Shown in pieces: positions 20,100 through 55,972 of a DNA stretch of 56,155 nt (positions within the stretch are counted from its first letter, which is position 1; each line of letters opens with the position of its first letter). The translations under genes were made by a program, and so were the position numbers. A model generated the notes under the pieces. The model searched no databases. It was given only the letters and a program-made list of their open reading frames with translations, and was not told the origin of the DNA. This DNA is from Clostridia bacterium (lineage in GTDB: Bacteria > CBDUZB01 > JAGLHV01): assembly GCA_030595925.1 (NCBI GenBank), contig JAUVLC010000002.1, positions 1 to 56,155 on the forward strand, read 5' to 3'.

Positions 20100-20270
20100 A
20101 AGCCTTTAATATATCCCTGCGGTGTTAGTGTTGTGTTGATCATTTTGGGCCTACAAGCCTAAATCAGGGAATTCTTCGGTTTTCTGTAATCTTGGTTACA
20201 GAAACGGAATACCCACCTGGTATCTGGTGCTTCAAAAGGACTGCACACACGGCATACGCGGGGGTTTTTT
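20100..20270 (+). ncRNA. ssrS: candidate 6S RNA
   Basis: GC-enriched island of about 170 nt with no ORF, immediately downstream of zapA. The ends pair (CCCUGCGGUG.. with ..CAUACGCGGGG). A perfect apical hairpin TTCTGTAA-TCTTGG-TTACAGAA is extended by GGGAAUUC/GGAAUACCC. The element ends in GGGGG-TTTTTT. A 5-formyl-THF cyclo-ligase gene follows two genes later, as in the classic zapA-ssrS-ygfA synteny. Confidence 0.6.
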
Positions 20271-28413: not shown

Positions 28414-29055
28414 ATGAAAAAACAAAATATTTGTATTATTCCTTTAAAATGTTCTCAGTGTGGTATGGAATTGCAAGCTGTGGAAGGGGAACAGGTTTAT
28501 TATTGTAATAATTGTAAGACTGCTTTATATTTAAAAGATGGTGAGCTTGAAGTTCTTCCTGTAGAGTTTGCACTTCCGTCGATTGAAAGAGAGAAAGAAG
28601 AATATGTTTTTTTTCCTTTTTGGTCTTTTTTGGTAGATATTGAATTTTTTGCCGGATTGAAACAGGAAAGATTTACTCAATTTTCTTTAGCCCGAAATAA
28701 ACAAGGGGTATGGCAATATCATGTAGCAGGATTATGGGGAACGGATGATTTTGGTTATATTAACAGGACATCCAATTTGTTTATGCGTTTTTGCCCTCAA
28801 TACAAGTTGAGTTCTAACTTCTATCCGATGCAAAAATGTTTTTTATCCAGAGAGGAGGCGGAAGATTTAGTCGAATTAATATTTTTATCTTTGGAAAACG
28901 AAACAATAGTTTCATTAAGTAAAATTAATTACAAGATTAAGATTCTTTCTTCTAAAATGGTAGGTATCCCTTTTTATCTTGACCGGGAAAAAGATGTATA
29001 CAGAGATGCATTAGGGGGAAAAACAATTGTACCGGTTTCTTTATTTAATAAGTAG
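28414..29055 (+). CDS. zinc-ribbon protein, paralog 3 (soluble, no TM)
   Basis: Motifs CSQCGMELQAVEGEQVYYCNNCKT and VFFPFWSF; 13 nt after the previous gene. Confidence 0.65.
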   Translation: MKKQNICIIPLKCSQCGMELQAVEGEQVYYCNNCKTALYLKDGELEVLPVEFALPSIEREKEEYVFFPFWSFLVDIEFFAGLKQERFTQFSLARNKQGVWQYHVAGLWGTDDFGYINRTSNLFMRFCPQYKLSSNFYPMQKCFLSREEAEDLVELIFLSLENETIVSLSKINYKIKILSSKMVGIPFYLDREKDVYRDALGGKTIVPVSLFNK

Positions 29056-29126
29056 TCGAATGGTCTCGGGTTTAATTTCCGGTAGCTTGTGTGTCATTCC
29101 CGTGAACAGAATGTGTCATAATCAAA

Positions 29127-29172
29127 GTAGTTGCCCAATGAACTTGTACCGAGTGTAATCGAAGTATTGGGC
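29127..29172 (+). repeat. REP-like element: GTAGTTGC head plus 7-bp stem GCCCAAT/ATTGGGC with a 26-nt loop
   Basis: Read directly from the sequence. It is followed by GGGCTGATGAAT(A)TTTTTC, which also occurs at 47175-47195. Confidence 0.4.
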
Positions 29173-29229
29173 TGATGAATATTTTTCCTGACGAGCGTCA
29201 TAAAGAGATTGTTGAAAAATACAAAGTTG

Positions 29230-29252
29230 GTAGTCGCAAACTTTAGTTTGCG
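29230..29252 (+). repeat. REP-like hairpin: GTAGTCGC head, stem CGCAAAC/GTTTGCG, loop TTTA
   Basis: Read directly from the sequence. Confidence 0.6.
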
Positions 29253-29294
29253 TGAAAATGTGGTAATATTTGGTAATAATCAGCAAAAAAATTC

Positions 29295-29316
29295 GCCGGC
29301 TGAAGCTGTCGGCTAC
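29295..29316 (-). repeat. REP-like hairpin in inverse orientation (GTAGCCGAC-AGCTTCA-GCCGGC on the minus strand)
   Basis: Read directly from the sequence; it is the partner of 29230-29252 inside the 131-bp element. Confidence 0.45.
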
Positions 29317-29404
29317 CGTTTTTCAACAATCTCTAAATGTCGCCACTATAATTGTTTTGAAAATTAGAGTTGTGACACAGTCTGGAAAATGGTAATATAT
29401 AGAA

Positions 29405-29435
29405 ATAGACTTCTGCTTTCGCAGGAGTGACATTG
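29405..29435 (-). repeat. 30-nt hairpin repeat, copy 1 (the reverse complement matches 55847-55876 at about 27/30)
   Basis: Sequence ATAGACTTCTGCTTTCGCAGGAGTGACATTG, with a 7-bp stem around TTTC. Confidence 0.55.
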
Positions 29436-29498
29436 ATCGCTTTCCCGTAGATTGCTGTGGGGTTGTTTATTGTATAAGTGGAAAAAGGAATTGGAAAA

Positions 29499-30701
29499 AT
29501 GGAAAATAGAAAAATTTATACTATTACGCAAATTAATCAAATAGTAAAAAATTTATTGGAAGATTCTTTTTTTGAGGTATGGATAGAAGGGGAAATATCC
29601 AATTTTAAATTGCATTCTTCAGGGCATATGTATTTTTCGTTAAAAGATGAAAGTGCTCAAATAAGTGCAATAATTTATAGAGGAATGTCTTTTGCTTTAA
29701 AGTTTGTTCCGGAAGATGGAATGAAAGTAAGGGTTAAGGGGAAATTAACCTGTTTCACTAGGAGGGGGCAGTATCAGATAATTATTTCTTTAATGGAACC
29801 ACAGGGAAAAGGAGCGTTACAGCTTGCTTTTGAGCAATTGAAGGAAAGATTAAAAAAAGAAGGATTGTTTGATGCAGAAAAAAAACAAAAAATTCCTTTT
29901 TTACCGCAGAGGATTGGAGTGGTGACTTCTCCTACGGGAGCGGCCGTAAGGGATATTTTATCCGTAATTGAACGTCGTTTTGCTAATGTGGAGATATTGA
30001 TTTATCCTGTGCAGGTGCAGGGGGATAAGGCGGCGGGAGAGATTTCCGGGGCAATAGATAATTTAAACGGCAAATTTTCTTATTTAGATGTGTTGATTGT
30101 TGGTCGTGGCGGAGGCTCGTATGAAGATTTGTGGGCGTTTAACGAAGAAATTGTTGTCCGGTCTATTTATTATTCTAAAATTCCTGTTATTTCGGCGGTA
30201 GGGCATGAGACAGATTATACTATTGCTGATTTTGTTGCTGATTTACGTGCCCCTACACCTTCGGCAGCGGCGGAGTTAGTCGTAAAAAACAAAGAAGAAT
30301 TGGCTTATCGTTTAAAAAATTATCAGATACAACTTACACAGAATATCAATTATAAATTAAATTCTGTAATGGAATTATTTTCCCGGATTAAGAGGAGTCG
30401 TGTTTTTCTCAATCCGTTTGATTTTATTAACCGGAAGCAACAGGAAGTAGATTATCTCGATGAAGGTCTAAATAGTAAATTCAAATACCTTTTTGCTAAT
30501 AAAGAAAAAGCATTTACTTCTTTGCTGGAGAAATTAAATATTTTAAATCCTCTTTCTGTTTTAGCCCGGGGTTATAGTATTATCTGGAAATGGCCGCAAA
30601 ATACTATTTTAAAAAGTAGTAAAGATGTAAAAATAAATGACAAAATAAAGATAAAACTTCATCAAGGGGAAATAATTTGTAAGGTAAGCCAAAAAACTTA
30701 A
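29499..30701 (+). CDS. xseA: exodeoxyribonuclease VII large subunit
   Basis: N-terminal OB region (TITQINQIVKNLLEDSF..VWIEGEISNFK.HSSGHMYFSLKD) and catalytic region GVVTSPTGAAVRDIL, GRGGGS.EDLW.FN. Confidence 0.93.
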   Translation: MENRKIYTITQINQIVKNLLEDSFFEVWIEGEISNFKLHSSGHMYFSLKDESAQISAIIYRGMSFALKFVPEDGMKVRVKGKLTCFTRRGQYQIIISLMEPQGKGALQLAFEQLKERLKKEGLFDAEKKQKIPFLPQRIGVVTSPTGAAVRDILSVIERRFANVEILIYPVQVQGDKAAGEISGAIDNLNGKFSYLDVLIVGRGGGSYEDLWAFNEEIVVRSIYYSKIPVISAVGHETDYTIADFVADLRAPTPSAAAELVVKNKEELAYRLKNYQIQLTQNINYKLNSVMELFSRIKRSRVFLNPFDFINRKQQEVDYLDEGLNSKFKYLFANKEKAFTSLLEKLNILNPLSVLARGYSIIWKWPQNTILKSSKDVKINDKIKIKLHQGEIICKVSQKT

Positions 30702-30772
30702 ATAAAGAACATTATTTAACTCTGTTTCCCAAATTTATTAAAAATAGAGTTTAATAACCGGAGGAAGAAAAT

Positions 30773-31000
30773 ATGGCTAAAAAAGAAATGCAGTTTGAGA
30801 GTGCTTTAAAGAGATTAGAAGAAATTGTCGGTAAATTAGAGCAAGATGAAAATGTATTGGAGGAATCGTTAAAATTGTTTGAGGAGGGAATAAAATTATC
30901 TACATTTTGTTCCGTCAAATTAAACGAGGTCAAGAAAAAAGTAGAGGTACTTACTACTAAAGAAGGAAAATTGCAAAAGGAAGACTATCTTGCGGAATGA
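30773..31000 (+). CDS. xseB: exodeoxyribonuclease VII small subunit
   Basis: Motif FESALKRLEEIVGKLE....LEESLKLFEEG. Confidence 0.9.
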   Translation: MAKKEMQFESALKRLEEIVGKLEQDENVLEESLKLFEEGIKLSTFCSVKLNEVKKKVEVLTTKEGKLQKEDYLAE

Positions 31001-31923
31001 AGAATTTTAAGGAGCAAAAAATTGATTTAAAACAATATCTGAAGAAAAGAAGGGAAGTTATTAATCAGGTCTTAAACAAGTATTTAAAATGTAATAAGAA
31101 ATCTCCTCGTGCTATTCAGCAATCTATGCGTTATAGTGTTTTTTCCGGGGGAAAGAGATTGAGGCCTATTTTGGTTTTATGTGCAGCGGAGATTTGTGGA
31201 AAAGACGGGTATAAAAAAGCATTGGCGTCTGCGTGTGCTCTGGAAATGATTCATGCTTATTCTTTGGTTCATGATGATTTGCCTGCTATGGATAATGATG
31301 ATTATCGCCGGAATAAATTGACTTCTCATAAGAAGTTTGGGGAAGCAATGGCTATTCTTACCGGAGATGCGTTGCTAACTTATGCCTTTCAGATTGTTGC
31401 GGATGACCTCTGGGTAAAAAAAGAAATGATTAGTGAATTAGCCATAGCAGCCGGTAGAGAACAAATGCTGGGAGGACAGGTAGAGGATATACAAAACTCA
31501 GGATGTAAAGGAAAGAAGATAAAGTCAAAGAACGAAAGGGCAAGGGTTGCCAAAAAAATAAATTATATTCATGACTGTAAAACAGGGTCATTAATAAAAA
31601 CAAGTTTGAAGATGGGGGCAATGGCGGTAAATGCATCCAAAAAACAAATTAAAGCTTTAGAAAAATATGGCGAAAATATAGGTTTGGCATTTCAAATTAT
31701 GGATGATGTTTTAGATATTGTGGGCAACAAAAAAAAATTAGGCAAAAGAGGAAGTGATTTTGATAATAGTAAATTGACCTATCCTTTAATTTATGGAGTA
31801 GAAAAGTCAAAGGAAAAAGCAGTTAAATTAGTAGAGAAAGCAAAGCAAAATTTAGTTATTTTTGGGCAAGAAGCAAATATTTTGAAAAAAATAGCTGATT
31901 ACGTAGTAAGTAGAGAATATTAA
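30997..31923 (+). CDS. ispA: polyprenyl (farnesyl/geranylgeranyl) diphosphate synthase
   Basis: First DDxxD motif (VHDDLPAMDNDDYRR) and second (FQIMDDVLD), with GKRLRP upstream. The ATG overlaps the xseB stop. Confidence 0.9.
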   Translation: MKNFKEQKIDLKQYLKKRREVINQVLNKYLKCNKKSPRAIQQSMRYSVFSGGKRLRPILVLCAAEICGKDGYKKALASACALEMIHAYSLVHDDLPAMDNDDYRRNKLTSHKKFGEAMAILTGDALLTYAFQIVADDLWVKKEMISELAIAAGREQMLGGQVEDIQNSGCKGKKIKSKNERARVAKKINYIHDCKTGSLIKTSLKMGAMAVNASKKQIKALEKYGENIGLAFQIMDDVLDIVGNKKKLGKRGSDFDNSKLTYPLIYGVEKSKEKAVKLVEKAKQNLVIFGQEANILKKIADYVVSREY

Positions 31924-31990
31924 ACCTGTACTTTTTTTAAAAAAATGGGCATAATAAACAAACATAAAAAATAATGAGGGAAAAAACCTG

Positions 31991-32013
31991 GTAGCCGCAG
32001 GCTTTAGCCTGCG
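31991..32013 (+). repeat. REP-like hairpin: GTAGCCGC head, stem CGCAGGC/GCCTGCG, loop TTTA
   Basis: Read directly from the sequence, in the ispA-dxs spacer. Confidence 0.6.
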
Positions 32014-32214
32014 TAGGGAAAGGAGACACAGATTACCTTTAAATAGTTATAATTGATAATTGGTAAGAGTATGCGTTTAAAGGTTCGTTAGGTTTTGATG
32101 TAGAAGAAATTATTATATAAAAACGCAGGCTTCCTCCGGAGGTGGACAAGAAAGCCTGTGATTACCAAAAGATAAAATATTTTGACATTAAAGTGATTTT
32201 TAGGGAGGAAAGAA

Positions 32215-34092
32215 GTGAGCATTTTAGAAAAAATAGAAAGTCCCGAAGATTTAAAATTGATAAGGAAAGATTTATTTCCTGAATTAGCCAAAGAAATTCG
32301 TGAAGAAATGATAAAAACCGTGTCGGTTACCGGGGGACATTTGGCAGGGAGTTTAGGGGTCGTAGAGTTAACTATTGCCCTGCATTATGTTTTTAATGCC
32401 CCTCAGGATAAAATAATATGGGATGTGGGGCATCAATGTTATCCTCATAAATTATTAACGGGAAGAAGAAAACTTTTTTCTACTCTTCGTCAATTTGAAG
32501 GAATAAGCGGTTTTCCGAAAAGGGAAGAAAGTGTTTATGATTCTTTTGGTGTAGGGCATAGTTCTACTTCTATTTCGGCAGGTCTGGGTTTTGCCTGTGC
32601 GAGGGATATTAAAGGAGAAGAAAATAAAGTAGTGGTAGTAATCGGGGATGGAGCAATGACTGGAGGTATGGTTTTTGAAGGATTAAATAATGCCGGGCAT
32701 ATAGCTACAGATTTACTGGTAATTTTAAATGACAATGAAATGTTTATTTCGCATAAGATAGGTGCGTTTGCCGGTTATTTGGCTAAACTGATGACTTTGG
32801 GATTGGTAAAAAAGTTGGAGCAAAAAGCTTATAAATTACTTAAGAGAATTTCTTTTTGGGGGATAAATCTGGTAAGAATAGCGAAAAGATTTAAGGTCTT
32901 GTTATTTCCGGGAATGCTTTTTGAAGAAATGGGGTTTGCCTATATAGGACCTATTGACGGACATGATATTTATCATATGATAGAAATTATAAGTAAGATA
33001 AAAGATTTAAAAGGCCCGGTTCTTCTTCATATTATTACTAAAAAAGGAAAAGGGTATCGTCCTGCGGAAGAAAAACCTACGGATTTTCATGGGGTAGGTC
33101 CTTTTGATATAACTACGGGAACAAAAGAACAAAAGTCCTCCGGAAAAAAAATTCCTACTTATACAGAAGTTTTTTCTTCTACCCTGCTTGCTTTAGCAAG
33201 AGAAAATGAAAAGATAGTAGCAATTACGGCAGCAATGTCTGATGGGACAGGTTTAACTCTTTTCGAAAAGCAATTTCCAAATCGATTTTATGATGTAGGT
33301 ATTGCCGAACAGCATGCGGTAACCTTTGCAGCAGGACTGGCGGCAGAGGGGCTGAAACCTGTTTGTGCTATTTATTCCACTTTTTTGCAGAGAAGTTTAG
33401 ACCAGATTATTCACGATGTTTGCCTGCAGAAATTACCGGTTGTTTTTGCTCTTGACCGGGGTGGTATTGTGGGGGATGACGGGCCTACCCATCAAGGGGT
33501 TTTTGATTTATCCTATCTTAGAATGATTCCTAATTTAATAGTGATGGCTCCTAAAGATGAAAATGAATTACAGCATATGTTGTATACAGCTTTTACTTTT
33601 GATTTGCCTTGCGCGATAAGATTTCCACGGGGAAAGGGAGTAGGGGTTAAACTGGATAACGACTTAAAAAAATTATCTTTGGGCGAAGCAGAAGTTTTAA
33701 CCTTAGGAAAAGATATAAATATTTTAGCAATAGGTAATATGGTTGAGCCTTCGCTTTTGGCTGCACAGAAATTACAGGTAGAAGAAGGAATATCCTGTGG
33801 AATAGTTAATATGCGTTTTTTAAAACCCTTAGATGAAAAAACACTCAATCTGGTAGCCCAAAAAAGTAAAAAGATAGTTACTGTGGAAGAAAATGTTTTA
33901 GCCGGAGGTTTTGGTAGTGCCGTAGCCGAATTTTTTAAAAGTGAAAAAATGCTTATAAAAAGTATTGGACTTCCTGACCTTTTCATCGAACAGGGAAAAC
34001 CTGAAATAATTCGACAAAAATATGGATTGACGACGGAAAAAATTGCTCAGGAAGTGAAGGATTTTTATAAAAATCGTAAAAAAAATGAGTGA
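32215..34092 (+). CDS. dxs: 1-deoxy-D-xylulose-5-phosphate synthase
   Basis: Motifs GGHLAGSLGVVELTIALHYVF, DVGHQCYPHK, GDGAMTGGM and IAEQHAVTFAAGLA. GTG start after GGGAGG. Confidence 0.97.
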   Translation: MSILEKIESPEDLKLIRKDLFPELAKEIREEMIKTVSVTGGHLAGSLGVVELTIALHYVFNAPQDKIIWDVGHQCYPHKLLTGRRKLFSTLRQFEGISGFPKREESVYDSFGVGHSSTSISAGLGFACARDIKGEENKVVVVIGDGAMTGGMVFEGLNNAGHIATDLLVILNDNEMFISHKIGAFAGYLAKLMTLGLVKKLEQKAYKLLKRISFWGINLVRIAKRFKVLLFPGMLFEEMGFAYIGPIDGHDIYHMIEIISKIKDLKGPVLLHIITKKGKGYRPAEEKPTDFHGVGPFDITTGTKEQKSSGKKIPTYTEVFSSTLLALARENEKIVAITAAMSDGTGLTLFEKQFPNRFYDVGIAEQHAVTFAAGLAAEGLKPVCAIYSTFLQRSLDQIIHDVCLQKLPVVFALDRGGIVGDDGPTHQGVFDLSYLRMIPNLIVMAPKDENELQHMLYTAFTFDLPCAIRFPRGKGVGVKLDNDLKKLSLGEAEVLTLGKDINILAIGNMVEPSLLAAQKLQVEEGISCGIVNMRFLKPLDEKTLNLVAQKSKKIVTVEENVLAGGFGSAVAEFFKSEKMLIKSIGLPDLFIEQGKPEIIRQKYGLTTEKIAQEVKDFYKNRKKNE

Positions 34093-34891
34093 TAAAAATC
34101 GTTTAGATAAAGTATTAATAGATAAAAGATTAGTGCAAAGCCGGCAGAGAGCTAAATCGCTTATTATGGCGGGGATGGTTTTTGTAAATGGAAAGAAAAT
34201 AGATAAAGTAGGTACCTTGATTGACCAAGAAGCAGATATTTATTTAAAAGAAAAAGATATCCCTTATGTCTCACGGGGAGGATTAAAATTAAAAACGGCT
34301 TTGGATGGTTTCAAGATAGATGTAAAAAATAGAATTTGCCTGGATGTGGGAGCATCTACCGGAGGATTTACCGATTGTTTACTTCAATATGGAGCAAAAC
34401 TGGTTTATGCTGTTGATGTCGGGTATGGACAGCTTGATTGGAAATTACGTAATGACTGCAGGGTAATAAATATAGAAAAAACAAATATTAGATATTTTAG
34501 TAGAGAGAATTTTTTACAAACCTTAAAAAATAAAATCAATGAAGCTGTTTTGAAAAACTGTGGTTTTAATAATCTTTGCTTTGAGGAAGAGGTTCTTCCG
34601 GATTTAGCGGTAGTGGATGTTTCTTTTATTTCTTTACGCAAGGTTTTACTTCCTGTTTATCAATTAATTAAACAAAAAGCAGAAGTCATTGCTTTAATTA
34701 AACCGCAATTTGAAGCAAGTAGAAAAGAAATAAAAAAAGGAATCGTAAAAGACGAAGAGGTTATAAAAACGGTAGTAGAAGAAATTAAACAATTTTCCGG
34801 TGAATTAAATTTTAAAGTAAAAGGAATTATTGCTGCACCCCTTAAAGGTCCCTCAAAAAACAGAGAACAATTGATTTATCTACAAAAATAG
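34085..34891 (+). CDS. tlyA: TlyA-family rRNA 2'-O-methyltransferase (S4 domain plus FtsJ-like MTase)
   Basis: Motifs RLDKVLIDKRLVQSRQRAKSLI, YVSRGGLKL, DVGASTGGFTD, VDVSFISL and LIKPQFE. Confidence 0.9.
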   Translation: MSDKNRLDKVLIDKRLVQSRQRAKSLIMAGMVFVNGKKIDKVGTLIDQEADIYLKEKDIPYVSRGGLKLKTALDGFKIDVKNRICLDVGASTGGFTDCLLQYGAKLVYAVDVGYGQLDWKLRNDCRVINIEKTNIRYFSRENFLQTLKNKINEAVLKNCGFNNLCFEEEVLPDLAVVDVSFISLRKVLLPVYQLIKQKAEVIALIKPQFEASRKEIKKGIVKDEEVIKTVVEEIKQFSGELNFKVKGIIAAPLKGPSKNREQLIYLQK

Positions 34892-34990
34892 TAATGTCAA
34901 AAATAAAATGATAAAAGCCAAGAAATGTGTTATAAAAGAAGAAAAATAAAACATTTTTGATATTACTACAAAAATAAAAAGGATTAATTA

Positions 34991-35992
34991 ATGAAGGAAG
35001 CCGCCTATTTTTCATTAATCGATACAGAAATTAAAACCGTACAATGTCATTTATGTCCTCATAAATGTATTATTGAAAATGATAAATTAGGGAATTGTCG
35101 GATAAGAAAGAATATAGAAGGGAAATTGTATTCTTTAACCTATAATAAATATGTTTCAGCAGGAATGGATCCGATTGAAAAGAAACCTTTATATCATTTT
35201 TTCCCTGGGTATGAAATATTATCCATAGGTAATGTGGGGTGTAATTTGCATTGCCTGTTTTGTCAGAATTGGGAAATTTCTCAAAAAGGAGTTCAATCAG
35301 GCCGTTTGCGGGAAATAACGGCGGAAGAGACAATTAATTTAGCTCAAAGTTGTGGTTCTATAGGAATTGCTTATACTTATAATGAACCGTTAATAAATTA
35401 TGAATATGTTTTAGAGACAGCGGCGAAGGCACAAAAAAGAGGCTTAAAAAATGTATTGGTTACTAACGGTTATATTAATGAAGCTCCTCTGGTTAATCTT
35501 TTACCTTATATTGATGCGGCAAATATAGATGTAAAGTCTTTCAGAAATGATTTTTATCGGGAATATTGTGGAGGAACCCTTAGTGATGTTTTACGGACGG
35601 CGGAAATTATGGAGCATCATAATAAGCATATAGAATTTACTAATCTGTTAATTGCCGGGTTGAATGACCGGGAAGAAATAATCGAGGATATGGTAGATTG
35701 GATTTATTCTTTATCTCCTGATATCCCCCTCCATTTTTCACGTTATTTTCCCTGTTACAAAATGACGCGTGAAGCAACCCCCTGGCCTGTTCTGGAAAGG
35801 GCAAGAGAGATTGCCTTGAAAAAATTACATTATGTTTATTTGGGAAATGTTGTAGAAGAGAAATCATCCTCGACTTTTTGTCCGGCTTGTGAAGCGGAGC
35901 TTATTGAACGAAGAGGATATAATGTTAAAATAATTAATCTGGAAGACGGGCATTGTAAAAGATGTGGTGAAAAAATTAATATTGTTGGTTAG
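34991..35992 (+). CDS. AmmeMemoRadiSam-system radical SAM enzyme (PflA-like)
   Basis: N-terminal VQCHLCPHKCII..GNCRIRKN, radical SAM cluster GCNLHCLFCQNWEIS and a C-terminal Cys cluster CPAC...CKRCG. Confidence 0.8.
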   Translation: MKEAAYFSLIDTEIKTVQCHLCPHKCIIENDKLGNCRIRKNIEGKLYSLTYNKYVSAGMDPIEKKPLYHFFPGYEILSIGNVGCNLHCLFCQNWEISQKGVQSGRLREITAEETINLAQSCGSIGIAYTYNEPLINYEYVLETAAKAQKRGLKNVLVTNGYINEAPLVNLLPYIDAANIDVKSFRNDFYREYCGGTLSDVLRTAEIMEHHNKHIEFTNLLIAGLNDREEIIEDMVDWIYSLSPDIPLHFSRYFPCYKMTREATPWPVLERAREIALKKLHYVYLGNVVEEKSSSTFCPACEAELIERRGYNVKIINLEDGHCKRCGEKINIVG

Positions 35993-36064
35993 GAAAAGAA
36001 AAATACCTATCAATTTTTCCCCCTGGGGGATTTTGACAAAAGATATCGAATGGTAAATCTGTTC

Positions 36065-36086
36065 GTAGTCGCTCAATTTATTGAGC
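36065..36086 (+). repeat. REP-like hairpin: GTAGTCGC head, stem GCTCAA/TTGAGC, loop TTTA
   Basis: Read directly from the sequence. Confidence 0.6.
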
Positions 36087-36200
36087 AAAAATGTTTAGGA
36101 TTGGGAAGTTTGCCTGTCCGCCAGTCTGTAAGGCGGGAACAAGGGAAAATAAAGGCAAAATATATTTCTCTCTAGACGCATAATTTTACCCTATGGGCAC

Positions 36201-36270
36201 GCAAAAACAAGCTAAAAATGAAAAACTCGCTTTGCTCAAACAGTTCCATTTTTTTTACGCTTGTTTCTGC
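36201..36270. repeat. 70-bp palindromic element (arms GCAAAAACAAGC / GCTTGTTTCTGC, 11/12)
   Basis: Read directly from the sequence. Confidence 0.4.
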
Positions 36271-36321
36271 TAAAATTTGCTATATCGTTCGAAACACATT
36301 TCACCTTTATTTTTTCTGTTT

Positions 36322-36343
36322 GTAGTTGCTCCATTTATGGAGC
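36322..36343 (+). repeat. REP-like hairpin: GTAGTTGC head, stem GCTCCA/TGGAGC, loop TTTA
   Basis: Read directly from the sequence. Confidence 0.6.
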
Positions 36344-36394
36344 TGTCTTTATCTTCTATTTTTTTGATTCATAACTTATAACTGTAGTTCCTGT

Positions 36395-36517
36395 CTATGA
36401 ACTATCGACTGCTGGAGCGGAGCGGAAGTCCACCAATCTTTAGTCCAGATGCCTTTGTGCCTGTCTTTTGTTTGTTGTCTTTTATCTATGGACTATCGAC
36501 TGTGGACTATGGACTGT
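36395..36517 (+). repeat. 17-nt direct repeat CTATGRACTATCGACTG (36395-36411 and 36486-36502); the second copy runs into four tandem heptamers GGACTAT/CGACTGT/GGACTAT/GGACTGT (36490-36517)
   Basis: Read directly from the sequence. Confidence 0.6.
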
Positions 36518-36557
36518 TTTTGTATTTATATTCACATTATTTAGTAAAAAACAAATA

Positions 36558-36591
36558 TTTTTGTAAGATTTTTACTTATTTATCATCTAAT
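36558..36591 (+). promoter_or_regulatory. ECF-like promoter motif, copy 1 (TTTTTGTAAGATTT-N13-CATCTAAT) upstream of the anti-sigma gene
   Basis: The -35-like GTAAGAT and the -10-like TCTAA are separated by 16 nt. Both blocks and the spacing recur exactly at 37101-37134. Confidence 0.45.
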
Positions 36592-36614
36592 CTAAGTGAA
36601 AGGAGAAAAATACC

Positions 36615-37109
36615 ATGAAATGCAAAAAAGCAAAAAAACTAATTTCTTACCAAATAGACGGCCAAATTAAAGCTAATGACCTAAGCGAATTAAAAAACCA
36701 TCTACTCCTTTGCCCTCATTGTAATAAAGAATACAAAGAACTTTTTGATTATAAGAATCTATTTAAGGAAACTTTTGATGATGTTACTCCCCCGGCTCTC
36801 TCTTCCCGTTTTGACCGGGTTTTTTACCGGCGTCTGGAAGAACAAACCATTTTACAAAAAACAAACATATTAGAAAAATTCATCCTACCCTACAAGCGTA
36901 TATGGGCTAAAGCAGGCATATTAGTAACAGCAGCAGTTTTAATCGTCACGCTAATTATTCCCAAAAACAAACCAATGGAAACACCGCTTAAAATGGCTGA
37001 ATCCAATTTAAGTACTTTAATTGAAAGTGCTGTGGCAAAAAGTAATGAAACCGAGGTGAAAAACTTCGTAGATTTACAGGCAAAAGAAATCTTACAAAAT
37101 TTTTTGTAA
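36615..37109 (+). CDS. zf-HC2 anti-sigma factor (single-pass membrane protein)
   Basis: N-terminal C-x28-H-x3-C-x2-C (CKKAKK...NHLLLCPHC) and a TM helix AGILVTAAVLIVTLII. GGAG SD upstream. Confidence 0.7.
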   Translation: MKCKKAKKLISYQIDGQIKANDLSELKNHLLLCPHCNKEYKELFDYKNLFKETFDDVTPPALSSRFDRVFYRRLEEQTILQKTNILEKFILPYKRIWAKAGILVTAAVLIVTLIIPKNKPMETPLKMAESNLSTLIESAVAKSNETEVKNFVDLQAKEILQNFL

Positions 37110-37134
37110 GATTTAGATTATATTAACATCTAAT
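37101..37134 (+). promoter_or_regulatory. ECF-like promoter motif, copy 2, overlapping the anti-sigma stop codon
   Basis: Identical TTTTTGTAAGATTT and CATCTAAT blocks with identical spacing. Confidence 0.45.
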
Positions 37135-37160
37135 AAAGCAAAAGGAGGTGGAAAAAGAAA

Positions 37161-38249
37161 ATGAAAAAGCAAATAAGCAAAAAAGGATTATTTAAAGAAA
37201 TTTTGAAAAAATTTAATCGAAAAGGAAAGGAGGAAGAAATAATGAAGAAAATCAGTAAAATAAGTTTAGTCTGTCTGGCAGTCTTAAGTTTGATAGTTGT
37301 AGGAGGAGTATTCGCCCGGGATTATGATTTGGTTAATGAATACCGTAGGGAAATTCGCCTGAGCAATGAAAGAGCATCAACCCAACGCAGTATTACCGGT
37401 GATACCAGAACTGCAGAATACGAAACAGGGAAAACCATCACTGATGTTAATGGTTACCGGGTAGAAATGGAGCAATATATCGAAAGAACAGACCTTGCAG
37501 CTAACCAGTACAAATTAGTTGTACTCAATAAAAGAACAGAATTACCTCCGGAAAAGCAACTTACTGAAGGGTATTCATTACAAACCTTTAATAAAGACCT
37601 ACCTGATAATTTAGGGGATTTATACGGCAAAATGAGTGGAATAGGTCAAGCACCGGAATACTATGCTACCGATATAGAAACCAGAGTATCCAACCCTGAA
37701 GGTGATAGTTGGCAACACGATTCGGAAGGGGGATTTCTCCACGAATATGCTACAAATGGTAGTTGTAGAGTTCTTTATGAGGTAGAAAAAACATCAGTCA
37801 ATGATATCCCCAAAATAAAAGTAGAAAGGAAAGATTATGATTTTCATCGCGAAGGCAACCAAACTTGGTCGGTGCCTAATAGACAGGGAGAATTAGCAAT
37901 ACTCTACAACGGACAGACAGGCCACCTTGATCTTGCAATATTACCCGCTTTGGATATACATATAAGTGGATCAGAAGCGCACTGGAGTGGAAAATTAATC
38001 TTTGTCGATGGTACTTTTATTTCTCACGAGCATTACCGGATTAACGATAAAGGAGAACCGCTGACCTGGAGAAAATTGTTCGGAGAAGGATTAACCATTG
38101 AAAACTGGCAGGAAGAAATCAGCCAATGGAATAATGAACACATCCTCGGAGCAAGTGAATTTAATGGAAGAAATATCGATATCGTCTGGTCACCACATAG
38201 TCTTGCTCTGGAAGTATTTCGCACTGACATTATTCCAGAAGATAATTAA
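37161..38249 (+). CDS. hypothetical exported/membrane-anchored protein
   Basis: AAGGAGGTGG SD before 37161. A second strong start at 37242 (AGGAGG SD) would begin MKKISKISLVCLAVLSLIVVGGVFA, which is signal-peptide-like. I recognise no motif. Confidence 0.6.
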   Translation: MKKQISKKGLFKEILKKFNRKGKEEEIMKKISKISLVCLAVLSLIVVGGVFARDYDLVNEYRREIRLSNERASTQRSITGDTRTAEYETGKTITDVNGYRVEMEQYIERTDLAANQYKLVVLNKRTELPPEKQLTEGYSLQTFNKDLPDNLGDLYGKMSGIGQAPEYYATDIETRVSNPEGDSWQHDSEGGFLHEYATNGSCRVLYEVEKTSVNDIPKIKVERKDYDFHREGNQTWSVPNRQGELAILYNGQTGHLDLAILPALDIHISGSEAHWSGKLIFVDGTFISHEHYRINDKGEPLTWRKLFGEGLTIENWQEEISQWNNEHILGASEFNGRNIDIVWSPHSLALEVFRTDIIPEDN

Positions 38250-38288
38250 TAGGAGAAAATTTATCTCTATTGATGTAGAAACAAAACA

Positions 38289-38328
38289 CAGAGGGAAGAT
38301 AAAAAGTTTTCCCTCTGCGTTTATTTTA
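38289..38328 (+). terminator. rho-independent terminator
   Basis: Stem CAGAGGGAA, 11-nt loop, stem TTCCCTCTG, then a T-rich tract. Confidence 0.65.
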
Positions 38329-38505
38329 TCTTGACAATTAGTTTTGTTATTTGTTAAACTTATTGACGATGTTACAATAATGCCTCATCCTCCAAATCCG
38401 CCTGAGGCGGATGAGACGGAGCGGAATGACCCGCCTTAAGGACTGTCGGGCAGACAGAATACTGTATTTTGCAAAAATCTCACGAACTAACCAAAGGGGG
38501 AATGC

Positions 38506-39762
38506 TTGAAAATGTTTAAAAATAAAATTACTGTCGGATTATTTATTTATTTTTTTGTTTTTTCTTTTTTCTTTTTTATATCAGCTGAAGCGAAAATAGA
38601 AGTCGTTCCTTTGCTTGATTTAAAATTAGGTGGAGGAAATTCTTATTTTGAAGGGGAATCCAGTTCGTTCGGAGGTAACTTTAGTCTGCATTTAGTACCG
38701 GCAATAAGATTTGGTAGAACAACCACCCTGCTTCCCCGCTATAGTGCTTATTACTCAGGATACAGATTAGCTATAGAAATAGAAGATGAAGAAAGCCTCT
38801 ATCAACAATCTTTTGACCATACACTCTCGCTTAAATTAATCCAGGAAATTTTACCCGATTTTAAATTCAGGGCAGAATACGGCCAGGATACGGAACTACT
38901 CAAAGAAACCAAGGACGAATCATGGGGTGATGGATTATATGATTATAACAGTCCCTATACTAATTTCGAGTTAGAAAAAAAATTCCCCATAGGAAACGGC
39001 TCTTCATTTCTTCTGGGAGGAGGAATGAGACTCTATAATATTACTTATCCCAACTATCAATCTCTATCCAGCGAAATAGGACTGGAATTAATGGGAAAAA
39101 ATGTTCTGGATAATAAAAATGCGGATGTTTTTATTAATGGTGAAATCTTCTGGAATTCAAAATATTTCACTCACTGGAAATTTACTCACACCAGAAGCGA
39201 TTATAACGACCAAAAAATAATTACTAATTCCGGAGAATATTCCAATGAAAAAAGAAATGACCGGATTAGCAATTTTACTGTCGGTTTAAATTTTAATCCG
39301 GACAGAAAGTATTATCTGGGTTTTGAGGAAGACGGATATTACAAAATATATTCGGGAATAGATCTGGTTTTTAAAACGAAAACCTCCAATCAAAACCATT
39401 TTGATACTGAATTTCTAATGTTTACCCCCCACTTCTACAGCTATAATCAAGTAAAATTCATCCCTTCTATTACCTTTAAATTTGTACCTGGTAACACCAA
39501 TGTTACCTTAAGTTGTAACTTTTCGTTTAAAAATTATCCCGATAGATTAGCTCAAAATACTCTCGGTGAATATACCAATGACAACCTTTCTTCTCAATCA
39601 GGCGGTATAATGCTAAATCTTTCTTCTCCTATTAATGAACGAATTTATGTGGAATTAGGCTGTGGCTATAAAAAAACATCTTCTAATATGAAATACGAAA
39701 CTTTTTATCAATATAATTATTCTACCGCTGATTATTCAATGGGAATTTGCTATCGGTATTAA
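38506..39762 (+). CDS. outer-membrane beta-barrel protein (hypothetical)
   Basis: Signal peptide; Y/F/N/S/G-rich sequence with alternating hydrophobic pattern; C-terminal ...GICYRY aromatic terminus. The start is TTG 38506 or ATG 38512. Confidence 0.6.
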   Translation: MKMFKNKITVGLFIYFFVFSFFFFISAEAKIEVVPLLDLKLGGGNSYFEGESSSFGGNFSLHLVPAIRFGRTTTLLPRYSAYYSGYRLAIEIEDEESLYQQSFDHTLSLKLIQEILPDFKFRAEYGQDTELLKETKDESWGDGLYDYNSPYTNFELEKKFPIGNGSSFLLGGGMRLYNITYPNYQSLSSEIGLELMGKNVLDNKNADVFINGEIFWNSKYFTHWKFTHTRSDYNDQKIITNSGEYSNEKRNDRISNFTVGLNFNPDRKYYLGFEEDGYYKIYSGIDLVFKTKTSNQNHFDTEFLMFTPHFYSYNQVKFIPSITFKFVPGNTNVTLSCNFSFKNYPDRLAQNTLGEYTNDNLSSQSGGIMLNLSSPINERIYVELGCGYKKTSSNMKYETFYQYNYSTADYSMGICYRY

Positions 39763-55846: not shown

Positions 55847-55876
55847 AATGTCACTCCTGCGAAAACAGGAGTCTAT
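55847..55876 (+). repeat. 30-nt hairpin repeat, copy 2
   Basis: Sequence AATGTCACTCCTGCGAAAACAGGAGTCTAT; the inverse copy is at 29405-29435. Confidence 0.55.
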
Positions 55877-55972
55877 TCTGGATTTCCGCTGAAGTTTATC
55901 CCGCACTTGATGCGGGGCGGGAATGACAGGCAACGAAGCAAGCTTCGGGGAATTGACCCGAAACGATTAAAA

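What the first reader, a model, noticed from the sequence alone, without database searches (positions are those of the whole stretch)
29127..36343. REP-like hairpin family: conserved GTAG head and TTTA loop with fully covarying stems
Four intergenic hairpins share the architecture GTAG-YY-GC, a stem, the loop TTTA, then the complementary stem:
- 29230: GTAGTCGC AAAC TTTA GTTT GCG
- 31991: GTAGCCGC AGGC TTTA GCCT GCG
- 36065: GTAGTCGC TCAA TTTA TTGA GC
- 36322: GTAGTTGC TCCA TTTA TGGA GC

The four variable stem positions differ in every copy, yet they are always perfectly compensated. The head and loop stay constant. Two further GTAG-headed hairpins have longer loops: 29127-29172 on the plus strand and 29295-29316 on the minus strand.

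A 5' GTAG tetranucleotide followed by a palindrome is the defining signature of REP elements, which are mobilised by RAYT (TnpA-REP, Y1 transposase) enzymes. No such gene lies in this window. Stem covariation with a fixed loop is not typical of simple REP decay. It suggests selection on the structure, either as single-stranded DNA or as RNA, with the loop and head as the recognised parts.
Basis: seen in the sequence. Interest (0 to 1): 0.62.

Follow-up and report, generated by a model that had tools for sequence, protein, structure and literature searches.

The report
REP hairpin repeats beside RAYT relic
The GTAG-headed hairpins are ordinary REP elements, short selfish DNA repeats copied by a RAYT enzyme, present in tens of copies in this uncultured bacterium; one sits beside the gutted remains of that enzyme's own gene.

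Summary
Four intergenic plus-strand hairpins of the form GTAG-YY-GC-N4-TTTA-N4'-GC lie at 29230, 31991, 36065 and 36322, where chance predicts none.

The REP reading is supported.
- The 23-mers at 31991 and 29230 are identical to a hairpin family found in more than 120 genomes from many phyla. The free stem positions pair perfectly in 134 of 156 copies.
- The same hairpins flank RAYT (REP-associated tyrosine transposase) genes on both sides in every RAYT locus of this subfamily that I examined.
- Metagenome contig depth gives about 77, 36 and 14 copies of three window hairpins in this organism and 2-3 of the fourth.
- Related genomes lack the inserts.

GTAG, a short perfect stem and a TTNA loop are the published recognition determinants of a group-3 REPtron. 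Stem covariation is therefore expected, not odd.

One new point: 32015-32114, between the 31991 hairpin and its inverted partner, is a RAYT gene relic missing about 358 nt. A related contig carries the intact gene with the same ends. The deleted unit is itself multi-copy, so it looks like a REPIN caught at birth.

An intact RAYT in this genome is indicated but not shown. No RNA data exist. Verdict: a new member of a known kind.

The parts
29052..29058 (+). GTAGTCG, a duplicated REP head. Its TAG is the stop codon of ORF 28414-29055.
   Evidence: Direct reading. Relatives L084 and L085 carry GTAGT-TTTAGTTTGC here, a REP lacking its left arm. The same 7 nt recur at 29230.
29109..29180 (+). High-copy repeat containing the long-loop GTAG hairpin 29127-29172: GTAGTT GCCCAAT [26 nt] ATTGGGC.
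   Evidence: Hairpin. Contig depth is about 3100 against 36 single-copy in X1, about 85 copies. Copies occur in L206 and L213, and in L209 and L215 the unit encloses other repeats in its loop.
29203..29338 (.). REPIN-like unit of about 135 nt. It has outer inverted arms AGAGATTGTTGAAAAA / TTTTTCAACAATCTCT and two GTAG hairpins facing outward.
   Evidence: Inverted repeat I1. Alignment of six lineage copies. Depth is 30-45 times single copy across the whole unit.
29230..29252 (+). REP GTAGT CGCAAAC TTTA GTTTGCG.
   Evidence: About 77 copies by depth. The exact 23-mer occurs in 6 loci of related MAGs and flanks the RAYT gene in L211.
29294..29316 (-). Inverted partner REP, GTAGCCGACAGCTTCAGCCGGCG. 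It is degenerate in this copy.
   Evidence: Other contigs laid there all read C at 29307. The same type lies 4 nt before the RAYT start in L226.
31989..32167 (.). Mini-REPtron made of a REP, a RAYT gene relic and an inverted REP. Absent from this spacer in L085.
   Evidence: Inverted repeat I1. The spacer is 40 nt in L085 against 239 nt here. Aligned end to end with the intact RAYT locus of L228. At least 4 more full-length copies lie in contigs at the organism's depth.
31991..32013 (+). REP GTAGC CGCAGGC TTTA GCCTGCG, the commonest variant of the cross-phylum family.
   Evidence: Depth is 1290 against 36, about 36 copies, with a sharp left edge at 31989. Logan contigs break here.
32015..32114 (+). 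RAYT gene relic. The N-terminal 12 codons (RERRHRLPLNSY) are fused, with a frame shift, to the C-terminal 22 codons (IIDNW*EYAFKGSLGFDVEEII). About 358 nt carrying the HUH and Tyr motifs are deleted.
   Evidence: tblastn with P0028. Best hit of a 120-member RAYT profile anywhere in the window, iE 0.002. 78-88% nucleotide identity to both ends of the intact gene in L228.
32125..32167 (-). Inverted REP with a mutated head (GTAATCA) and a 19-nt loop (about 15 extra nt): CAGGCTT [19 nt] AAGCCTG.
   Evidence: Other copies have the short canonical form (loose end at 32131). L085 20729 has the long-loop form with an intact GTAGT head.
36065..36086 (+). Type-B REP GTAGTC GCTCAA TTTA TTGAGC.
   Evidence: Only 2-3 copies by depth.
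36322..36343 (+). Type-B REP GTAGTT GCTCCA TTTA TGGAGC.
   Evidence: About 14 copies by depth. Sister variants occur in L215, L120, L104 and L163.

Best explanation
The hairpins are REPs (repetitive extragenic palindromes) of the GTAG-tagged superfamily. They are the non-autonomous DNA partners of a RAYT / TnpA-REP enzyme, an HUH tyrosine nuclease.

**How it works.** This is inferred from published work on related systems.
- When the strand carrying GTAG is single-stranded, it folds into the short perfect hairpin.
- RAYT recognises the GTAG head, the TTNA loop and an uninterrupted stem.
- RAYT cuts at a nearby CT or CA dinucleotide and rejoins strands. This spreads the hairpins, mostly as inverted pairs (REPINs).
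- The enzyme reads the head and loop and needs pairing rather than a fixed stem sequence. Copies can therefore differ in the stem only by compensated changes.

**Shown here.**
- Membership of the family by sequence identity.
- The family's constant association with RAYT genes.
- Multi-copy status in this organism.
- Presence or absence differences between related genomes.
- A RAYT relic between the 31991 hairpin and its partner.

**Inferred.**
- That an intact RAYT in this genome is or was active on these hairpins.
- Any effect on the xseA-ispA-dxs transcripts that must read through them.
For: 1. **Same sequence as a widespread family.** The pattern GTAGYCGCNNNCTTTAGNNNGCG hit at least 119 loci in many phyla. 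134 of 156 copies have the three free stem pairs complementary, where chance gives 1 in 64. The commonest 23-mer equals window 31991.
2. **Constant association with RAYT genes.**
   - Found through the hairpin: L146, L173, L211 and the partial L195.
   - Found independently through protein similarity: L217, L218, L219/L220, L222, L224, L225, L226, L227 and L228.
   - L146, L173, L211, L220, L222, L224, L227 and L228 have hairpins on both sides; the others have one on a single side, within about 160 nt of the gene.
   - All these proteins hit NCBIfam REP_Tyr_transpos best, with 77-97 bits against a cut-off of 80.
   - The L211 protein hits PDB 4ER8, TnpA-REP.
3. **Multi-copy in this organism.** Depth over the hairpin cores is 14-85 times single copy. 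The between-run ratios match the single-copy ratios: 2790:973:1097 against 36.3:12.6:14.9.
4. **Insertion differences.** Relatives have spacers of about 20 nt and 40 nt where the window has 413 nt and 239 nt.
5. **RAYT relic.** It lies at 32015-32114. The intact homologue in L228 has the same REP, the same ends and the same downstream flank. A second copy with the same deletion junction also lies in L228.
6. **Longer RAYT copies in the same metagenomes.** Contigs at about the organism's depth (27-44 in X1) join relic-like C-terminal sequence to coding sequence for VLDNPVRKG, the RAYT tyrosine-motif region.
7. **Published determinants match.** In REPtron Mb the REP is GTAG, 2 nt, a perfect stem and a loop T-T-N-A. 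T12, T13 and A15 are essential, a stem swap is tolerated and a mismatch is not (PMC8266576). REP families split into sub-families with complementary stem changes (PMC3733652).
8. **No RNA signature in the mismatches.** Only 4 of 25 stem mismatches are G-T pairs. That is the chance level and argues against RNA-type selection.
Against: - No intact RAYT gene is in the window, nor in about 66 kb of related MAG sequence held here. Its presence in this genome rests on short contigs.
- Copy numbers come from assembler word depth of short metagenome contigs. Other taxa share the hairpin core.
- The two type-B hairpins are in direct rather than inverted orientation. No type-B copy was seen next to a RAYT.
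- The 135-nt unit has long outer inverted arms like a classical MITE.
- Some RAYTs score just under the NCBIfam cut-off.
- No cleavage or transposition has been shown for this family.
Confidence: 0.88

Rival explanations
1. The hairpins exist mainly as RNA structures. They would act as 3' stabilisers, attenuators or protein-binding stem-loops within the xseA-ispA-dxs operon transcripts, and the structure is selected at the RNA level.
For: All four are co-oriented with the flanking genes and must be transcribed if the operon is read through. In relatives these genes are 20-40 nt apart. REPs are known to affect mRNA stability in other bacteria (background knowledge). A weak terminator-like tail follows 36328-36343.
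Against: - No Rfam match.
- Partners occur on the opposite strand.
- The same sequence flanks RAYT genes in many phyla.
- G-T pairs are not enriched among mismatches.
- The inserts are absent in close relatives, so they are not needed for the operon.
- No RNA reads cover the region.
Confidence: 0.05
2. The mobile units are ordinary terminal-inverted-repeat MITEs moved by a DDE transposase. The GTAG hairpins are passengers inside them.
For: The 135-nt unit has 16-25-nt outer inverted arms. Other MITE-like repeats, such as element X, crowd the same spacers.
Against: - Across phyla only the hairpin is shared, not the outer arms.
- No target-site duplication is seen at the unit ends.
- The hairpins alone flank RAYT genes.
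- The 31989-32167 unit ends in the hairpins themselves and carries a RAYT relic.
Confidence: 0.05
3. The four hairpins are a chance resemblance in AT-rich intergenic DNA.
For: None beyond the small number of copies in the window.
Against: There were 0 occurrences in 300 simulated windows. The sequences are identical to a family with hundreds of members. Depth shows tens of copies in the organism.
Confidence: 0.01

Closest known systems
Group-3 REPtron Mb of Marinomonas sp. MWYL1 (Corneloup et al. 2021, PMC8266576)
   Same: GTAG head, a 1-2 nt unpaired spacer, a short perfect stem and the 4-nt loop T-T-N-A. The RAYT gene is flanked by the REPs. In that system the loop and head are the recognised parts and the stem sequence is exchangeable.
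   Different: Stems here are 6-7 bp rather than 5 bp. The host is an uncultured low-GC bacterium labelled Clostridia in the nearest MAGs, not a gammaproteobacterium. No biochemistry exists for this family. Whether its RAYT belongs to the group-3 clade was not tested.
Pseudomonas REPs and REPINs (Di Nocera GTAG-1 family, PMC3733652; Bertels and Rainey 2011, PMC3116915)
   Same: GTAG-tagged palindromes, inverted doublets, sub-families with complementary stem changes, tens to hundreds of copies, and a cognate RAYT.
   Different: The same 23-mer recurs here across many phyla instead of being lineage-specific. One doublet keeps a recognisable piece of the RAYT gene as its spacer.
E. coli REP/BIME with TnpA-REP (PDB 4ER8; PMC3479197, PMC3333891)
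   Same: GTAG next to a hairpin acted on by an HUH-Tyr enzyme, mosaic clustering in intergenic regions, and a REPtron layout.
   Different: E. coli REPs are longer, have a required bulge in the stem, and their loop is not sequence-specific.
IS200/IS605 subterminal hairpins and their miniature derivatives
   Same: Single-strand hairpins with a 5' guide tetranucleotide, recognised by a related Y1 HUH enzyme. Non-autonomous derivatives arise by deletion.
   Different: The associated proteins match the REP_Tyr_transpos model far better than the IS200 model (77-97 bits against 20-24 bits). There is no TnpB gene and no distinct left and right ends.

Membership tests
REP (GTAG-tagged repetitive extragenic palindromes) | A GT[AG]G tetranucleotide at the 5' side of a short palindrome of 20-40 nt | tested here: met
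   All four copies are 22-23 nt with a GTAG head.
REP (GTAG-tagged repetitive extragenic palindromes) | Extragenic location | tested here: met
   All four lie between Pfam-supported genes.
REP (GTAG-tagged repetitive extragenic palindromes) | Many copies per genome | tested here: met
   About 77, 36 and 14 copies by contig depth, and 2-3 for 36065. Between-run ratios match the organism's single-copy depth. This is indirect, because no closed genome is available.
REP (GTAG-tagged repetitive extragenic palindromes) | Arranged as inverted doublets (REPIN/BIME) | tested here: met
   The pairs 29230/29316 and 31991/32167 are inverted with GTAG outward. About 29% of family copies have such a partner within 60 nt. 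The type-B pair is in direct orientation.
REP-RAYT system (REPtron) | The same REPs flank a RAYT gene | tested here: met
   Met in other genomes: 13 loci. In the window it is met only as a relic at 32015-32114.
REP-RAYT system (REPtron) | An intact cognate RAYT in the same genome | tested here: inconclusive
   None in the window or in related MAG loci. Contigs at about the organism's depth carry RAYT Tyr-motif coding sequence joined to relic-like sequence. An intact gene lies in the related contig L228.
REP-RAYT system (REPtron) | RAYT binds, cuts and rejoins the single-stranded REP | not testable with these tools
   Needs protein and oligonucleotide assays.
Group-3-type REP layout (Mb-like; Di Nocera GTAG-1/-2) | Unpaired bases between GTAG and a short perfect stem, with a T-T-N-A loop | tested here: met
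   The spacer is 1 nt in type A and 2 nt in type B. Stems are perfect and 6-7 bp. The loop is TTTA in the window. In paired family copies the loop is TTTA or TTCA in 253 of 256, though the search pattern favoured TTTA.
Group-3-type REP layout (Mb-like; Di Nocera GTAG-1/-2) | The RAYT falls in the group-3 clade | not tested
   No phylogeny with reference group-2 and group-3 proteins was made.
IS200/IS605 ends or their miniature derivatives | Association with a TnpA of the IS200 type | tested here: not met
   The proteins score 77-97 bits on REP_Tyr_transpos and 20-24 bits on transpos_IS200, whose cut-off is 55.
Intrinsic terminators | A GC-rich hairpin followed by a run of T | tested here: not met
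   No T run follows three of the four, and only a weak tail follows 36343. The scan found 8 sites against 4.9 expected.
Curated RNA families (Rfam 15) | A match to a covariance model | tested here: not met
   There was no hit on the hairpins even at E up to 5.
TIR-type MITE | Terminal inverted repeats plus a target-site duplication | tested here: inconclusive
   Outer inverted arms are present in the 135-nt unit. No duplication is visible at the ends of six copies.

The most novel reading that the evidence does not exclude
The unit 31989-32167 is a REPIN caught at birth. A RAYT gene flanked by its REPs lost about 358 nt of coding sequence, and the remaining REP-relic-iREP piece then spread as a non-autonomous element.
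- It has at least 5 copies in this organism and another in a related genome, all with the same deletion junction.
- This would be direct sequence evidence for the proposal that REPINs arose like MITEs from the ends of an ancestral RAYT or IS200-like element (PMC3116915).
- It would belong to a REP-RAYT family whose 23-nt hairpin is shared almost unchanged across many phyla.
Probability: 0.55. Interest if true: 0.55.

Novelty: new member of a known kind. Interest (0 to 1): 0.4.

Why it matters
- **Annotation.** It settles what these hairpins are, so they need not be chased as a new RNA or regulatory motif.
- **Range of the system.** REP-RAYT systems are extended to an uncultured, low-GC, sediment-dwelling lineage labelled Clostridia. 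Its intergenic DNA is unusually crowded with small repeats.
- **One family across phyla.** One REP-RAYT family keeps nearly the same 23-nt hairpin across many phyla. This fits horizontal spread of some RAYT subclasses (PMC6006769).
- **Origin of REPINs.** The relic-bearing doublet is a rare visible intermediate between a transposase locus and its miniature offspring. That bears on how REPINs originate.
- **Assembly.** These repeats break short-read assemblies exactly at the hairpins.

Tried and rejected
- **Dxs as bait for relatives.** A less conserved neighbouring protein worked.
- **Other readings, dropped after the genes were identified.** These were a phage promoter hairpin, a sigma-54 site, a Bacteroidetes -7 box, a Spo0A box and an integron attC site.
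- **First RAYT regular expression.** It was too strict and missed true hits. It was corrected and replaced by profiles.
- **RNA evidence.** Three metatranscriptomes from the same study hold nothing from this region.
- **Rfam.** Nothing at gathering or E-value thresholds.
- **Promoter and terminator scans.** No excess over shuffles.
- **Literature search for the exact hairpin strings.** No relevant paper.
- **Hunting this organism's own RAYT.** I looked up Logan-derived homologues.
  - L225 and L227 are from other organisms.
  - L226 carries lineage-type REPs.
  - P0137 is not on record.
- **Conserved upstream motif.** A CTGTGTCATAA motif lies 20-27 nt before GTAG in only 7 of 147 family copies, so it is not part of the core element.

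Full report
**Setting.** The window is a 34% GC bacterial chromosome piece. It carries xseA, xseB, ispA, dxs, tlyA, a radical-SAM gene and an anti-sigma factor around the finding, plus a 6S RNA and one tRNA elsewhere. It appears only in cold-seep, hydrothermal and marine-sediment metagenomes. The nearest public genomes are uncultured MAGs, two of them labelled Clostridia.

- The four hairpins are exactly where stated, all on the + strand and all between genes.
- GTAGYYGC occurs seven times against 1.3 expected.
- The full paired pattern occurs four times against none in 300 simulated windows.
- In 29230 and 31991 an extra C-G pair makes the stem 7 bp.
- The long-loop hairpin at 29127-29172 is real.
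- The one at 29316-29294 is a weakened inverted partner.

**The hairpins sit in lineage-specific inserts.**
- Three related contigs align with the window at 83-93% identity. They have about 20 nt where the window has 413 nt (29057-29469), and 40 nt where it has 239 nt (31959-32196).
- At the first site the relatives keep GTAGT-TTTAGTTTGC right after the stop codon. This is the same REP minus its left arm.
- In the window, GTAGTCG stands on both sides of a 171-nt block.
- Logan contigs from several runs break at the hairpins.

**The hairpins belong to a very wide family.**
These come from Planctomycetota, Nitrospirota, Desulfobacterota, Ignavibacteria, Bacteroidota, Verrucomicrobiota, Chloroflexi and others.
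- Of 156 matches, 134 have the three unconstrained stem pairs fully complementary, spread over 13 different stems. The commonest sequence is identical to window 31991.
- About 29% have an inverted partner within 60 nt, with GTAG outward.
- Among mismatched pairs, G-T is no commoner than chance, at 4 of 25.
- Loops in fully paired copies are TTTA or TTCA in 253 of 256. The search favoured TTTA.
- Type-B forms (GTAG-TT-GC-YYNA-TTYA) also occur in other taxa.

**The family is the partner of a RAYT subfamily.**
- ORFs next to the hairpins in L146, L173 and L211, and a partial one in L195, are RAYTs. The complete ones have the hairpins on both sides, often as doublets.
- Searching by protein instead, from the L211 and L226 RAYTs, I examined nine independent loci: L217, L218, L219/L220 (a Syntrophomonadaceae MAG), L222, L224 (WOR-3), L225, L226, L227 and L228.
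- Every one of the nine has the same hairpin family beside the gene.
- These proteins hit NCBIfam REP_Tyr_transpos best, at 77-97 bits against a cut-off of 80. They hit the IS200 model only weakly.
- The L211 protein matches the solved E. coli TnpA-REP, PDB 4ER8.

**The hairpins are multi-copy in this organism.** I laid metagenome contigs on the window. Single-copy genes sit at 36, 13 and 15 in runs X1, X2 and X3.

| Region | Depth in X1 | Approximate copies |
|---|---|---|
| 29226-29252 | 2790 | 77 |
| 31989-32014 | 1290 | 36 |
| 29109-29180 | 3100 | 85 |
| 36316-36351 | 510 | 14 |
| 36064-36087 | not recorded | 2-3 |

- The between-run ratios equal the single-copy ratios, so the copies belong to the same organism.
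- About half of the 29230 copies extend to 29333.
- Copies from four related MAGs and the window (six sequences, five with the full unit) define a 135-nt unit: outer arms AGAGATTGTTGAAAAA / TTTTTCAACAATCTCT, the 29230 REP, a 41-nt spacer, and an inverted REP with a different stem.
- Units nest inside one another, for example inside the loop of the GCCCAAT hairpin in L209 and L215. This recalls the mosaic BIMEs of E. coli.

**A RAYT relic lies in the window.**
- Between the 31991 REP and its inverted partner, 32015-32050 translates as RERRHRLPLNSY. This is the RAYT N-terminal KEKKHRL motif region.
- In another frame, 32049-32114 translates as IIDNW*EYAFKGSLGFDVEEII, the RAYT C-terminus.
- A profile of 120 RAYTs finds this C-terminal piece as its best hit in the whole window, iE 0.002.
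- Contig L228 (33% GC) shares lineage repeats and holds an intact RAYT. Its REP, first 12 codons, last 22 codons, inverted REP and downstream flank align with the window at 78-88% identity.
- The window lacks the 358 nt between those ends, including the HUH and tyrosine motifs.
- L228 also carries a second copy of the deleted form with the same junction.
- At least four more full-length deleted copies lie in contigs at this organism's depth.
- Other contigs at about that depth join relic-like C-terminal sequence to coding sequence for VLDNPVRKG. Longer RAYT copies therefore exist in the same samples.

**Mechanism.**
- Published work shows that RAYTs bind single-stranded REPs in a strand-specific way and cut at CT 5' or 3' of the hairpin.
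- In the group-3 Marinomonas REPtron Mb, the REP is GTAG, two bases, a perfect stem and the loop T-T-N-A.
- In that system T12, T13 and A15 are essential. Swapping the stem to its complement has only a moderate effect, and a mismatch strongly reduces cleavage.
- GTAG acts as a guide for the cut site (PMC8266576).
- REP families commonly split into sub-families with complementary stem changes (PMC3733652).
- This explains the fixed head, the fixed loop and the covarying stems seen here.
- That the lineage enzyme acts in this way is inference.

**Rivals.**
- An RNA-level role as the primary cause is unlikely. There is no Rfam match, partners lie on both strands, wobble pairs show no excess, and the inserts are absent in relatives. 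A secondary effect on the read-through transcripts cannot be excluded, because no RNA data cover the organism.
- A DDE-type MITE origin fits the outer arms of one unit. It does not fit the cross-phylum sharing of the hairpin alone, nor the RAYT relic.

**Verdict.** This is a new member of the known REP-RAYT kind. It has one detail of wider interest: a multi-copy doublet whose spacer is a recognisable transposase remnant.

Noticed in passing
window 36146-36313; L085 8862-9109, 18092-18135, 20938-21091: Element X is a long imperfect hairpin repeat with arms AATAAAGGCAAAATAT... and ...ACATTTCACCTTTATT and a variable centre. It reaches 100-170 copies by contig depth. In the window it lies between the two type-B hairpins, which form a 29-nt direct repeat around it.
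   Followed up: partly
window 36456-36700 (core 36486-36517): Another very high-copy stretch, about 90 times single copy, holds 7-nt tandem units CTATGGA/CTATCGA. The same motif occurs reversed in L085 8923-8993. ORF 36397-36618 overlaps it and has no Pfam hit, so it is probably not a gene.
   Followed up: partly
window about 37000-39000: GC skew changes sign from about +0.3 to about -0.25 and gene orientation flips. This could be a replication terminus. All four hairpins lie on the G-rich strand just before the switch.
   Followed up: no
window 29107-29121 (+), 29370-29384 (-); L085 20828-20842; L108, L133, L164, L170, L174: The motif (C)AGAnTGTGTCATAA lies 5-27 nt upstream of GTAG in this window (5 nt) and in a few distant phyla (20-27 nt), 7 of 147 family copies. 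It resembles an extended -10 box. Its role is unknown.
   Followed up: partly
window 29052-29055: The GTAG of a REP head supplies the TAG stop codon of ORF 28414-29055. Relative L085 keeps GTAG at this stop (L084 reads GCAG, with its stop a few bases upstream); both keep a REP remnant that lacks the left arm.
   Followed up: partly
L086-L204 (family-wide): The 5' arm of the variable stem is nearly always purine-rich (AGG, AAC, AAG, GGG, AGA and so on), and the complementary versions are not seen. The stem is therefore not freely swappable. The identical 23-mer recurs in many phyla.
   Followed up: partly
L085 18045-18078: A different GTAG-headed palindrome, GTAGGGGCGACCC...GGGACCCCTAC, sits directly before a half-copy of element X. 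Similar GTAGGGGC strings flank hairpins in L107 and L172, which suggests a second REP class.
   Followed up: no
window 29404-29434 and 55847-55877: A 31-nt match at 93.5% identity in inverted orientation links the xseA upstream region to the far end of the window.
   Followed up: no
window 32168-32195; L228 4490-4520: Similarity between the window and the intact RAYT locus continues past the inverted REP into ACCAAAA-ATAAAATA-TTTTGACATTA, which contains a TTGACA hexamer facing the downstream gene.
   Followed up: no
window 20111-20268: A 6S RNA gene, with an Rfam score of 56.5 bits against a gathering score of 46.4.
   Followed up: no
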